This document shows positions 4,551 through 7,212 of a DNA stretch of 47,622 nt, piece after piece. A model generated the notes under the pieces. It saw only the letters and a program-made list of their open reading frames with translations. It had not been told where the DNA came from and made no database searches. The stretch spans positions 1 through 47,622 of the forward strand of contig JAVECS010000012.1 of the NCBI GenBank assembly GCA_051942165.1, given 5' to 3'. Source of the stretch: Circinaria calcarea. Taxonomy: Eukaryota. Made by a program: the position numbers and the translations under genes. Numbering within the stretch: the first letter of the stretch is position 1; each line of letters opens with the position of its first letter.

Positions 4551-5807
4551 ATGGCGGATCAGAATGATGTGGATCTTGATTCCATTATCGACCGGCTCCT
4601 AGAAGTACGAGGAAGCAGACCTGGGAAGCAGGTGCAGCTTCTCGAAACAGAGATACGTTATTTGTGCACAAAAGCGAGGGAAATCTTCATATCGCAGCCT
4701 ATACTTCTGGAACTAGAGGCACCAATAAAGGTGGGTACCTACATCTTTTCCTTTGCCAGGCGGAATTTTCCAATGGAATTTTGAGACTGACAGCCGCTCG
4801 GTTCGTTACAGATCTGCGGCGATATCCATGGCCAATATTACGACCTCCTACGTCTCTTCGAGTATGGAGGCTTTCCACCGGAAGCCAACTACCTCTTCTT
4901 AGGTGATTATGTGGACAGGGGTAAACAGTCGCTTGAGACAATCTGTCTACTCCTTGCATATAAGATTAAGTACCCAGAAAACTTTTTCATTCTCCGGGGC
5001 AACCATGAGTGTGCTTCGATTAACCGCATCTATGGCTTTTACGACGAGTGCAAGAGGCGATACAATATCAAGCTATGGAAGACATTCACTGATTGCTTCA
5101 ATTGCCTCCCTATCGCCGCGATCATTGATGAGAAGATCTTTACCATGCATGGAGGGTTAAGTCCAGATCTCAATTCAATGGAACAAATCCGTCGTGTTAT
5201 GCGACCAACAGATGTGAGTGCTTACTTTCTTTGCTTTTGTAATCAAGTGACGCAACGCGTTCAACACATCCATGTGTGTTGATCCGCTGACTGTATTAGA
5301 TACCCGACTGCGGCCTGCTATGTGACCTACTGTGGTCAGATCCAGACAAAGACATTACTGGCTGGAGCGAGAACGATCGTGGAGTCTCATTCACGTTTGG
5401 GCCTGATGTAGTCTCTCGGTTCTTGCAAAAGCATGATATGGATCTTATCTGTCGAGCGCATCAGGTTGTCGAGGACGGCTACGAGTTCTTCTCGAAGAGA
5501 CAACTCGTTACGCTATTCAGCGCACCCAATTACTGCGGCGAGTTCGACAACGCAGGGGCGATGATGAGCGTTGATGAGAGTCTGTTGTGTTCTTTCCAGG
5601 TATGCAAAACCCTTTGATCGCCCATAGCGACTATTCTCGAACTCTCTATGTATGGTACATTTGCTTGCTTGCCTAAGGCATTGAAACTGATATTCCCCTG
5701 CCTCGCATTAGATATTGAAACCAGCGGAGAAGAAACAAAAGTACGTTTATGGTGGCATGAGCACTGGCCGACCCATCACTCCTCCAAGGAAACAGAAGAA
5801 GAAGTAA
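4551..5807 (+). CDS. GLC7: Serine/threonine protein phosphatase PP1 catalytic subunit (Glc7/BimG ortholog)
   Basis: Exons 4551-4730, 4812-5213, 5300-5599, 5712-5807. PPP motifs GDIHG, GDYVDRG, RGNHE, SAPNYC. C-terminus [12 protein letters not shown]. Confidence 0.98.
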
Positions 5808-7212
5808 TTGTACCAACATAAGACTTTGGTGCACAACAGGTTCGGCCGCAGATGATGTATCATTGTCGCCCTCGTCGATCGAACCGGCGGATAACGAAGC
5901 AACGTTCAAGCTTGTGACCTTACGCACCTCCTCTATCCCGTCCTCGAGCACGAGTTTCCTCTATCGCCCTCATCGCGTTTCCTACGGTGGCCTCGGCATT
6001 TGTCAACTACGGTGGTTTGGGCTCGAAAGGGGCGATGTTGTCGGAAATACGTTAGTTAGGGATTGGGAGGAGGATCTTTACTTTTTCTGCGTTGGGCTTT
6101 GCTTTGCTGCCGCTTACATCTATGATCAAGGACGGAAGAACTTGCACGAAGTATTGATTGTTTGGTACGTATGGGACGGTGGACCGGTTTCTTTGCAGGG
6201 TTACGTGATGCGATGAGAGCTCTGCAAAGGTGGTACTGGTTCCTGTGCTTATTCCTCTTTATTCCATGTGCGTGCCATGAACGCATGTCTCCTAGTACGA
6301 ATTTGACAACGATAAGCGACTCGAGTATGCATTCACTGTGCTGAGGCTGTAATGCTCTCATCGGCTTCTGCCTCCGGAAACGATATCCTCTACTGCGAAC
6401 CAAGAAAAGTGCGGAACCAACAGCCGGTAAATCCTGCCGGATATGCCTCCACTTTCGTCTGCGGTCCATCTGAACACGAACCTACTCCGGCGGAAGAATA
6501 CTGACCGAACCCCCTGCCTTTTCCTCTTCCCCGCCCCTTAATTCTCTTCCATCACCTGTCCCCTCTGATTCTTCTCATTACGAAGTCACCACCGTAAATC
6601 CCGTTGGATGACCCATTTCACCCCCGATTAAGGGGAGTGGCGGAGAGATGGACGGTACCGGACGTACGGTTGAGGACGTTGGTCGATCGATGAGCTTCGG
6701 GAAAAGAGAGAGGAGTTGGGCACGGGGACGATAGGGAGGCAAAGCGGGAAAAAGGGAAGCGGGAAAGAGGGAATCCAGAGGAGCGAGGATGAGGGGTTGA
6801 GGATGCGATGCAGTTCCCTGTTCCGGCGATGTCGGATTCTTGTGATGATGGTATCAGGCATCGCATGGCAGGGCAGGAAGAGGAGTGATGGAATCGAATG
6901 TCCGTTGACTAATCCGGGCGTGGGGAGGGGGAATAAAGGTCAGTAGCAACACTAGATGTCTCGAACCGATCATAAGGTCCGACGCATTTCCATTGATCCG
7001 GCGCCGGATATGGTGTAGAAAGGACGGAATCGACCGTCCACGCCATAACCTCAATGCAAACACCACCTACCTCGCCATCACATTGGGAGTCAGGCGGGCT
7101 GTAGATGGCCATGCCCTTCCCTACCAAACAAAGACTCTTCCACTTCTCGGCTCACCTATTCCCATCACATTCCAAACCCCTTGCCAACTCATACTATTTT
7201 TCTATATCTGGT

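What the first reader, a model, noticed from the sequence alone, without database searches (positions are those of the whole stretch)
5712..5855. One PP1 gene, two C-termini: a hidden terminal intron toggles the CDK-inhibitory TPPR site
Seen: inside the last coding exon, CAA AA|GTACGT (5741) is a consensus donor. A TACCAAC branch-like site (5811-5817) and an ACAACAG acceptor (5839) follow. Retention gives ..[27 protein letters not shown]. Splicing out 5741-5839 gives ..AEKKQKFGRR* (TGA 5853-5855). Established: phosphorylation of the TPPR threonine by CDK inhibits PP1; S. pombe Dis2 has this site and its paralog Sds21 lacks it; mammalian PP1gamma1/gamma2 tails arise by alternative splicing. From memory, both tail types (..TPPRKQKK and ..QKFGRR) occur among annotated filamentous-fungal PP1s. 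Inference: this single gene makes a CDK-regulated isoform with a basic NLS-like tail and a CDK-insensitive isoform, copying the Dis2/Sds21 split by splicing.
Basis: partly seen in the sequence, partly recalled or inferred. Interest (0 to 1): 0.75.

Follow-up and report, generated by a model that had tools for sequence, protein, structure and literature searches.

The report
Alternative last intron in fungal PP1
The single protein phosphatase 1 gene of this lichen-type fungus has a conserved optional last intron, so it can probably make one enzyme tail with a cell-cycle kinase site and one short tail without it.

Summary
The PP1 gene (+ strand, 4551-5807) encodes 325 aa ending in a TPPR tail. 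Removing 5741-5839 (99 nt, GTACGT...CAG) gives 308 aa ending FGRR, with the stop at 5853-5855.

This is not chance. FGRR is the annotated PP1 C-terminus in 7 of 50 named Pezizomycotina cluster representatives, and a transcript-like unnamed protein also ends this way. The TPPR-type tail is conserved in 18 of the 50. The residue pair that encodes the donor (Y-V, GTAYGT) is kept in 22 of 23 named tails. Wrongly annotated read-through proteins act as DNA proxies: 7 lichen fungi and Talaromyces keep the acceptor and mini-exon, and the visible variation falls on third codon positions of the FGRR frame.

Some lineages appear to have settled on one form. Two relatives have no intron and encode FGRR directly, three have lost the donor G and keep the long tail, and in several Sordariomycetes and Dothideomycetes the long-tail frame has decayed.

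No RNA data from this organism could be examined, so production of both isoforms here is inferred. Six literature searches found no description of the event. Verdict: a real, conserved, probably alternative terminal intron, and a new variant of a known kind.

The parts
4551..4730 (+). PP1 exon 1 (60 aa, starts MADQNDVD)
   Evidence: Translation. Pfam STPPase_N, E 5.7e-25. N-terminus identical to the Xylographa PP1 P0066.
4812..5213 (+). PP1 exon 2 (134 aa, first part of the catalytic core)
   Evidence: Pfam Metallophos, E 1.8e-33. Aligned with PP1 relatives.
5300..5599 (+). PP1 exon 3 (100 aa, ends ..LLCSFQ)
   Evidence: 100% identical to many Pezizomycotina PP1 proteins.
5712..5740 (+). Part of the last exon shared by both forms (ILKPAEKKQ plus the first two bases of the Lys codon)
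5741..5839 (+). Optional terminal intron, 99 nt. If retained it encodes the rest of the long tail ([21 protein letters not shown] and a stop).
   Evidence: The same donor position is used in FGRR-ending annotated PP1s of other classes.
5741..5746 (+). 5' splice site GTACGT, overlapping the Lys-Tyr-Val codons
   Evidence: Val follows ..KQKY in 22 of 23 named Pezizomycotina tails. 12 of 17 genomic read-through proxies are compatible with G-T (or G-Y) at this position.
5778..5789 (+). T-P-P-R codons, a CDK-consensus site found only in the retained form
   Evidence: Sequence. [ST]PP?RK is kept in 18 of 50 named Pezizomycotina representatives.
5805..5807 (+). TAA stop of the long (intron-retained) form
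5811..5817 (+). TACCAAC, a possible weak branch site
   Evidence: Sequence only. It is not a CTRAY match. The read-through frame keeps Pro-Thr (CCNACN) here in 7 lichen proteins. This is suggestive and unproven.
5833..5839 (+). 3' splice site ACAACAG
   Evidence: The read-through frame reads Q-Q-V-R in 8 proteins, which fits CAG followed by GTTCGG.
5840..5855 (+). Mini-exon: third base of the Lys codon, then F-G-R-R and the TGA stop (5853-5855)
   Evidence: Same peptide as the annotated C-terminus of PP1 in Colletotrichum, Fusarium oxysporum and Ophiocordyceps.

Best explanation
This is the single PP1 catalytic-subunit gene (the BimG / PPP-1 / Glc7 type; those names are recalled) of a Lecanoromycete, a lichen-forming fungus. 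Its last coding exon contains an old U2-type intron, 5741-5839, that is optional.

If the intron stays in the mRNA, translation runs on into it. The product is 325 aa and ends in the tail conserved across eukaryotes (..[13 protein letters not shown]), which carries a CDK-consensus threonine. If the intron is removed, the Lys codon is completed by G5840 and four codons follow. The product is 308 aa, ends ..KQKFGRR, and has no such site.

The strong donor combined with a non-consensus branch region fits partial splicing, meaning intron retention.

Shown here: the sequence anatomy; conservation of both coding options in this class; and use of the same junction in other classes. Inferred: that both mRNAs are made in this organism; that CDK phosphorylates the long tail and lowers its activity, as in Dis2 and mammalian PP1; and that the ratio of the two forms is regulated.
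For: (1) Anatomy and reading frames.
(2) Identity as PP1: Pfam STPPase_N and Metallophos. Exon 3 is 100% identical to many fungal PP1s. The protein is 321 of 325 identical to the Elaphomyces PP1 P0045.
(3) FGRR-type ends in 7 of 50 named Pezizomycotina representatives: 5 Sordariomycetes, 1 Leotiomycete, 1 Dothideomycete.
(4) A fully spliced, transcript-like protein from a 1928-nt contig (P0125) ends in FGRR. Its N-terminus matches the window's except at one residue.
(5) Two unnamed genomic ORFs (P0022, P0030) end in ..RFGRR, which fits AG|G TTC.
(6) The long tail is conserved in 18 of 50: 10 Eurotiomycetes, 5 Lecanoromycetes, 2 Leotiomycetes and Fusarium solani.
(7) Two Pseudogymnoascus strains are annotated one each way (P0060, P0076), so that genus carries both options.
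(8) All 8 read-through proteins with the Q-Q-V-R motif (7 lichen fungi and Talaromyces) are compatible with F-G-R-R-stop in the shifted frame. They differ from each other and from the window only at bases that are third codon positions, or stop-to-stop changes, in the FGRR frame.
(9) Compatibility with FGRR-stop is enriched downstream of CSFQ: 29 of 25,770 windows against 23 of 116,450 elsewhere, odds ratio 5.7.
(10) Y-V, which encodes GTAYGT, is kept even where the rest of the retained frame has decayed: 22 of 23 tails.
(11) Where the long frame has decayed (Stachybotrys, Stylonectria, Plenodomus, and unnamed P0026 and P0032), the mini-exon is still compatible. This shows what relaxed selection on one option looks like.
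Against: No transcript data exist for this organism, and the 5740/5840 junction was not observed. No CTRAY branch motif lies in the intron, although the gene's three constitutive introns all have one. Within the class Lecanoromycetes, all 5 correctly annotated representatives carry the long form and none is annotated FGRR. The DNA proxies are back-translations, so second codon positions of the FGRR frame are hidden, and compatibility is not proof. Three unnamed relatives (P0054, P0106, P0108) have A rather than G at the donor and keep the long tail, so the intron is dispensable in some lineages. For 12 of the 25 named read-through or mis-spliced proteins no compatible mini-exon was seen; these are either uninformative or negative, and the two cannot be told apart. 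Tail-less Dis2 supports normal growth in S. pombe (PMC7990198 passages), so the switch may matter little under laboratory conditions. The RNA fold of the region is unremarkable (z -1.31).
Confidence: 0.62

Rival explanations
1. In this lineage the segment is never spliced, and only the 325-aa TPPR form is made. The downstream FGRR mini-exon would be a slowly decaying relic of an ancestral intron, or a 3'UTR element conserved for another reason.
For: All 5 correctly annotated Lecanoromycete representatives carry the long tail. The intron has no CTRAY branch motif. Some relatives have lost the donor G and keep the long tail.
Against: The donor, acceptor and F-G-R-R-stop are all intact in the window. 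Across 7 lichen fungi and Talaromyces the visible substitutions fall on third codon positions or keep a stop in the FGRR frame. A relic would not be expected to show that pattern. In the 7 lichen proteins and the window, the spacing from the long-form stop to the acceptor shows no insertions or deletions.
Confidence: 0.17
2. The intron is spliced in some transcripts, but this is splicing noise or a way of tuning expression. The 308-aa protein would have no role distinct from the long form.
For: Intron retention is the commonest alternative-splicing type in fungi (general knowledge, recalled). The C-terminal tail of Dis2 is dispensable for its essential functions (PMC7990198 passages). Lineages with only one form exist.
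Against: Conservation of the exact FGRR peptide across at least five classes, and its use as the only intact C-terminus in many Sordariomycetes and Dothideomycetes, shows that the short protein is a complete, working PP1. A coding-type substitution pattern in lineages that also keep the long tail argues that both products are under selection.
Confidence: 0.15
3. The intron is always removed and only the 308-aa FGRR form is made. The open long-tail frame would then be an accident.
For: The donor is strong (GTACGT). FGRR is the annotated form in Sordariomycetes.
Against: The retained frame encodes a tail identical to that of Elaphomyces and close to those of basidiomycetes and animals (..GRP[IV]TPPRK..). 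In lineages where splicing seems constitutive, this frame decays beyond recognition. Its preservation here therefore implies that it is translated.
Confidence: 0.04

Closest known systems
Mammalian PPP1CC: PP1gamma1 and PP1gamma2 (PMC6930163, passages seen; PMC6506691, passage seen)
   Same: It is a PP1 catalytic-subunit gene. Retaining the last intron gives one C-terminus, with the stop codon inside the retained intron. Removing it joins a small downstream exon that gives another C-terminus. That downstream exon lies in the 3'UTR of the retained form.
   Different: The origin is independent: the paper states that the mammalian splice sites and exon 8 are found only in mammals. In mammals the two forms diverge after residue 315, so both keep the TPPR threonine. 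Here the split lies upstream of TPPR, so the site is present in one form and absent in the other. The fungal mini-exon is 4 codons, against 22 residues in mammals.
S. pombe paralogues Dis2 and Sds21 (PMC7990198, passages seen)
   Same: They are two PP1 proteins with nearly identical catalytic domains and different tails. One tail has a CDK-targeted Thr-Pro site and the other does not.
   Different: In S. pombe the two tails come from two genes. Here they would come from one gene by splicing. The Sds21 tail is 21 aa and is unrelated to FGRR. The Dis2 tail is dispensable for essential functions in that study.
Fungal alternative splicing with later subfunctionalization: SKI7/HBS1 and PTC7 (PMC3597508, passages seen)
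   Same: An old alternative-splicing event in one fungal gene corresponds to two separate proteins or genes elsewhere. Individual lineages later settle on one form. PTC7 also works by intron retention.
   Different: PP1, GLC7 and Dis2 are not mentioned in that paper (0 occurrences of each term). Here the settling happened by intron loss, donor loss or decay of one reading frame, not by gene duplication.
Annotated Pezizomycotina PP1 proteins with either tail, for example Colletotrichum P0046 (FGRR) and Elaphomyces P0045 (TPPRKQKKK)
   Same: The window's two predicted products match these two annotation types to the residue in the tail.
   Different: Databases give one form per genome. No record seen in the listings presents them as two isoforms of one gene. 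From recall, not checked here: N. crassa PPP-1 is 308 aa and A. nidulans BimG is 323 aa.

Membership tests
PP1 catalytic subunit (PPP family) | STPPase_N domain followed by a Metallophos domain | tested here: met
   Pfam: exon 1 STPPase_N, E 5.7e-25; exons 2 and 3 Metallophos, E 1.8e-33 and 4.3e-08.
PP1 catalytic subunit (PPP family) | Near identity to named PP1 proteins, with the catalytic motifs GDxHG, GDxVDRG and GNHE | tested here: met
   321 of 325 identical to the Elaphomyces PP1 P0045. GDIHG, GDYVDRG and RGNHE are visible in the alignment. The motif names are recalled.
U2-type spliceosomal intron | GT donor matching the fungal consensus, and a YAG acceptor | tested here: met
   GTACGT at 5741-5746 and CAG at 5837-5839.
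U2-type spliceosomal intron | Branch site CTRAY within about 10-40 nt of the acceptor | tested here: not met
   There is no CTRAY in 5741-5839; the nearest match is CCAAC at 5813-5817. The three constitutive introns have CTGAC or CTGAT. The consensus is recalled.
U2-type spliceosomal intron | Length typical for the genome | tested here: met
   99 nt, against 81, 86 and 112 nt in the same gene.
U2-type spliceosomal intron | The same junction is used in relatives | tested here: met
   7 of 50 named representatives and the transcript-like P0125 end ..KQ[KN]..FGRR.
U2-type spliceosomal intron | Spliced RNA observed in this organism | not testable with these tools
   No RNA data and no fungal read or contig collection were available.
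Alternative terminal-intron retention giving two PP1 C-termini (PPP1CC type) | The retained intron carries the stop of one form, and a downstream exon encodes the other tail | tested here: met
   TAA at 5805-5807 lies inside the intron. The mini-exon at 5840-5855 ends in TGA.
Alternative terminal-intron retention giving two PP1 C-termini (PPP1CC type) | Both mRNAs or proteins detected from one gene | not testable with these tools
   The only evidence is indirect. Both options show coding-type conservation in the same class, and two Pseudogymnoascus strains are annotated one each way.
Alternative terminal-intron retention giving two PP1 C-termini (PPP1CC type) | Common descent with the mammalian exon 8 event | not tested
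   No alignment was made. PMC6930163 (passages) says the mammalian sites are absent outside mammals, so independent origin is expected.
CDK-inhibited PP1 tail (Dis2 Thr316 / PP1alpha Thr320 type) | Thr-Pro with a basic residue at +3, near the C-terminus | tested here: met
   T-P-P-R at 5778-5789, 9 residues from the end of the long form. The Thr320 numbering is recalled.
CDK-inhibited PP1 tail (Dis2 Thr316 / PP1alpha Thr320 type) | Phosphorylation by CDK that lowers activity | not testable with these tools
   Inferred from homology only. The Dis2 data come from PMC7990198 passages.

The most novel reading that the evidence does not exclude
An alternative terminal intron in the one essential PP1 gene dates back to early Pezizomycotina. 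It lets a single gene supply both a CDK-controllable and a CDK-blind phosphatase, which is a one-gene counterpart of Dis2 and Sds21. Different lineages have since settled on one form in at least three ways. In the first, the intron is lost precisely, fixing FGRR (Trichoderma arundinaceum P0056 and unnamed P0024). In the second, the donor is lost, fixing the TPPR form (P0054, P0106, P0108). In the third, the retained reading frame decays while splicing goes on (many Sordariomycetes and Dothideomycetes). Lichen fungi, Eurotiales and some Leotiomycetes still keep both forms under selection.
Probability: 0.35. Interest if true: 0.75.

Novelty: new variant of a known kind. Interest (0 to 1): 0.6.

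Why it matters
PP1 is essential and single-copy in filamentous ascomycetes. It opposes mitotic kinases, and the tail threonine is the classical route by which CDK turns it down. If one gene supplies both a CDK-sensitive and a CDK-insensitive enzyme, the balance between them becomes a new place to look for control of mitotic exit, transcription termination and polar growth in these fungi.

The idea can be tested directly with two simple alleles that nature has already produced: a silent Lys codon change that removes the donor, and precise intron deletion.

The finding also explains a practical annoyance. Fungal PP1 is annotated as about 308 aa in some genomes, about 325 aa in others, and as a read-through or fusion in many. 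Of the 50 named representatives seen here, 20 had a mis-spliced or read-through 3' end.

Tried and rejected
- Listing the members of the 90% clusters (P0044 with 564 members, P0045 with 72) to look for both tails within one species or among transcript-derived entries.
- Direct DNA alignment of PP1 3' ends across fungi. Read-through mis-annotations and ORF-style proteins were used as DNA proxies instead.
- Rfam scan of 5400-6400 at E up to 1: 0 matches.
- RNA fold of 5725-5870: -36.3 kcal/mol, z -1.31, with 18 of 200 shuffles folding as well. This gives no support for a structure-based switch.
- Literature: searches found no paper describing alternative splicing of a fungal PP1 C-terminus. The fungal phosphatase review PMC6506691 (passages) mentions alternative splicing only for mammalian PP1gamma and PTC7. 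The Neurospora papers PMC3931568 and PMC8262944 (passages) say nothing on PPP-1 isoforms. Supplements were not opened, so large-scale splicing tables could still list the event.
- The idea that the upstream LRR gene is the PP1 regulator Sds22 was considered and not pursued. The gene encodes 826 aa with LRRs only at about residues 405-545.
- Structure prediction, complex prediction, the protein atlas and the 50%-representative search were judged uninformative for a question about a 4-residue versus a 21-residue disordered tail, and were not run.
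Full report
**1. The observation**

The window carries a four-exon PP1 gene on the + strand: 4551-4730, 4812-5213, 5300-5599 and 5712-5807. It has GT-AG introns of 81, 86 and 112 nt and encodes 325 aa. Pfam finds STPPase_N in exon 1 and Metallophos in exons 2 and 3.

- GTACGT at 5741-5746, in phase 2 of the Lys codon
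- the long-form stop TAA at 5805-5807
- TACCAAC at 5811-5817
- ACAACAG ending at 5839
- sixteen bases (5840-5855) that read, after joining, as the last base of Lys, then F-G-R-R and TGA

Retention gives ..[24 protein letters not shown]. Splicing gives ..KQKFGRR and a 308-aa protein.

**2. Is it more than chance?**

A GTACGT alone is not enough, since there are 10 on this strand of the window. But AG|G followed by F-G-R-R-stop has a probability of about 1.3e-8 per position, and the motif occurs once in all six frames of the window, at 5841. FGRR is also exactly the annotated C-terminus of PP1 in other fungi, as shown below. So this is homology, not coincidence.

**3. Whose genome is it?**

The neighbouring upstream ORF (616-3096, 826 aa, with LRR repeats) finds its best named relatives in Lecanoromycetes: Varicellaria 68%, Trapelia 67%, Umbilicaria 65%, Xylographa 63%. 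Unnamed entries reach 95%. The PP1 N-terminus is identical to that of Xylographa P0066. The window therefore comes from a lichen-forming Lecanoromycete or a close ally. Class names for genera are from my own knowledge.

**4. What relatives show**

Two searches were run: one with exon 3 against longer proteins (best 120 of 8000 scored) and one with the last 45 residues of an FGRR-ending hit (best 120 of 5889). Together they gave 191 proteins. I could assign 50 of them by name to Pezizomycotina, and their tails fall into five groups.

| Tail group | Count (of 50) | Who |
|---|---|---|
| FGRR type | 7 | ..KQKFGRR in Colletotrichum, two Fusarium oxysporum and Ophiocordyceps; ..KQKGFGRR in Phyllachora; ..KQNRFGRR in Pseudogymnoascus F-103 and Zymoseptoria |
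| Conserved long tail with [ST]PP?RK | 18 | 10 Eurotiomycetes, 5 Lecanoromycetes, 2 Leotiomycetes, Fusarium solani |
| ..KQKY[VA] then unconserved sequence | 5 | Stylonectria, Plenodomus, Stachybotrys, Monilinia, Aureobasidium |
| Spliced from the same place to some other acceptor | 10 | mixed |
| Read through intron 3 | 10 | mixed |

The ..NRFGRR variant fits the same donor with an acceptor three bases upstream; this is an inference. Two Pseudogymnoascus strains are annotated one each way (P0060 short, P0076 long).

An unnamed protein from a 1928-nt contig (P0125) has all introns removed and ends in FGRR. Its N-terminus differs from the window's at one residue, and it also lacks 31 internal residues. 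I read it as transcript-derived, on the assumption that this source does not splice its gene calls.

**5. The donor is conserved as RNA, not as protein**

In 22 of 23 named Pezizomycotina tails that continue past ..KQKY, the next residue is Val. The exception is Ala in Aureobasidium. Outside that set, the same position is G, P, A, V, Q, N, M and others. Lys-Tyr-Val spells AA|GTAYGT. The pair survives even where everything after it has decayed, as expected for a splice signal.

**6. DNA proxies**

No fungal DNA collection was available. I therefore used mis-annotated and ORF-style proteins that read the homologous DNA in another frame.

*Acceptor and mini-exon.* Seven lichen proteins and Talaromyces contain ..Q-Q-V-R-[A/T]-[E/K/Q]-I-.. 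downstream of the frame-shifted tail. The window reads Q-Q-V-R-P-Q-M-M in that frame. A script that asks whether any DNA can satisfy both readings found all 8 compatible with F-G-R-R-stop in the shifted frame. The residues that vary between them change bases that are the third position of the Gly codon, the third position of the first Arg codon, and positions that swap one stop codon for another. The bases that can be seen and do not vary are first and second positions. That is the pattern of a coding mini-exon. Second positions hidden by degeneracy remain unverified.

*Spacing.* The seven lichen proteins and the window also show no length change between the long-form stop and the acceptor. 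All keep Pro-Thr (CCNACN) where the window has CCAAC.

*Other relatives.* The mini-exon is compatible in Stachybotrys, Plenodomus, Monilinia, possibly Stylonectria, and unnamed P0026, P0029 and P0032. Two unnamed ORFs (P0022, P0030) end in ..RFGRR outright.

*Background.* 23 compatible windows of 116,450 occur outside the region downstream of CSFQ, against 29 of 25,770 downstream (odds ratio 5.7, p 1.3e-9). For 12 of the 25 named read-through or mis-spliced proteins nothing compatible was seen. Most of these skip the region, so they neither support nor refute.

**7. Lineages that appear to have chosen one form**

- Trichoderma arundinaceum P0056 and unnamed P0024 are compatible with ..KKQKFGRR-stop encoded without interruption. 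These are the only 2 hits among 334,138 windows tested. This implies precise loss of the intron and fixation of the short form.
- Three unnamed proteins (P0054, P0106, P0108) require AAA for the Lys codon, so the donor G is gone. Their PP1 frame is compatible with a conserved ..KYVYGGM...TPPRK tail.
- Of the 17 relevant proxy rows, 12 are compatible with G-T (or G-Y) at the donor, 3 lack the G and 2 have no intron. The other 8 of the 25 rows are chance matches elsewhere in long proteins.

**8. Mechanism**

The most economical reading is an old, optional terminal intron.
- The long form keeps the tail shared with basidiomycetes and animals (..GRP[IV]TPPRK..), including a T-P-P-R site that fits the CDK consensus.
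- The short form is a complete PP1 that lacks the site. It is the only intact option in many Sordariomycetes and Dothideomycetes, where PP1 is presumably as essential as it is reported to be in Neurospora (PMC3931568 passages).
- In the window's class both options look selected, so both are probably made.
- The strong donor with a poor branch region would favour incomplete splicing. No known RNA family or unusual fold suggests another switch.

The link to CDK rests on S. pombe: Dis2 Thr316 lies in a CDK-targeted Thr-Pro and is phosphorylated in vivo, while Sds21 lacks the site (PMC7990198 passages). It also rests on recalled mammalian work on Thr320. The same paper tempers the importance, because Dis2 without its tail supports normal growth and is viable in two backgrounds where Dis2 is essential. 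The 'NLS-like' idea for KQKKK has no support from any call.

**9. Comparison with what is known**

The architecture matches mammalian PPP1CC. There, retaining intron 7 gives PP1gamma1 and removing it joins exon 8 for PP1gamma2 (PMC6930163 passages). That event is restricted to mammals and leaves TPPR in both forms. The fungal event is therefore an independent invention with a different consequence.

In evolutionary logic it resembles SKI7/HBS1 and PTC7 (PMC3597508 passages), a paper that does not mention PP1. Six full-text searches found no description of the fungal PP1 event. Supplementary tables of splicing surveys were not examined.

**10. Verdict**

The regulatory meaning remains an inference. 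It is a new variant of a known kind, of moderate to good interest, and directly testable.

Noticed in passing
window 616-3096 (+), just upstream of PP1: An 826-aa open frame with LRR repeats at about residues 405-545 lies next to PP1 in the same orientation. The same neighbour is fused to PP1 in mis-annotated Teloschistales proteins (P0084, P0086, P0087; 42-49% identity), so the gene order is conserved across Lecanoromycetes. It was not examined whether this LRR protein has anything to do with PP1, as the LRR regulator Sds22 does (recalled).
   Followed up: partly
whole window: The best named relatives of the LRR protein are Lecanoromycetes (Trapelia, Varicellaria, Umbilicaria, Xylographa, 63-68%), and unnamed entries reach 95%. 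The window is from a lichen-forming fungus or a close ally.
   Followed up: yes
window 9048-47039: Other long open frames: DUF2457 (9048-11363, -), a methyltransferase (13776-15188, -), an LRR plus Exo_endo_phos pair that looks like a CCR4-type deadenylase (16990-19366, +; the CCR4 label is recalled), a cyclic-nucleotide phosphodiesterase (23873-25309, +), eIF3a (29297-31828, +), GCD14 (41040-42059, -) and RPN7 (43339-44397, +). Two long frames have no Pfam match (35656-37602, -; 46047-47039, +).
   Followed up: no
P0056 (Trichoderma arundinaceum) and P0024 (unnamed): Read in a shifted frame, both are compatible with ..KKQKFGRR-stop encoded contiguously. This implies that the terminal intron was precisely lost and the short form fixed. 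They are the only 2 hits in 334,138 windows.
   Followed up: partly
P0054, P0106, P0108 (unnamed): The Lys codon must be AAA, so the donor G is absent, while the PP1 frame stays compatible with a conserved TPPRK tail. In P0054 the downstream frame reads ..RWFGPRT.., which could be a decayed mini-exon. This is a single sequence and the reading is speculative.
   Followed up: partly
P0091 (Saitoella complicata), P0078 (Arthrobotrys flagrans), P0126 and P0135 (unnamed): Tails that end ..GGMGGGRFGR..KKNNPFGNRSQRFE and ..KRQKFGG, or begin ..KQKFGGRGRP.., hint that an F-G-R-like ending may be older or more varied than Pezizomycotina FGRR.
   Followed up: no
50 named Pezizomycotina PP1 representatives: Twenty of the 50 have a mis-predicted 3' end: 10 read through intron 3 and 10 splice from the terminal donor to an unrelated acceptor, several of them fusing PP1 to neighbouring genes. 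The optional intron seems to be a recurrent trap for gene predictors.
   Followed up: partly
window 5766-5771 and 5842-5847: GGCCGA inside the intron can pair with TCGGCC in the mini-exon in the minimum-energy fold. The fold as a whole is not better than shuffles (z -1.31).
   Followed up: partly
P0125 (unnamed, 277 aa): This FGRR-ending, transcript-like protein lacks 31 residues across the exon 2/3 junction (..GGLS directly joined to PDKD..). That could be an aberrant splice or an assembly artefact.
   Followed up: no
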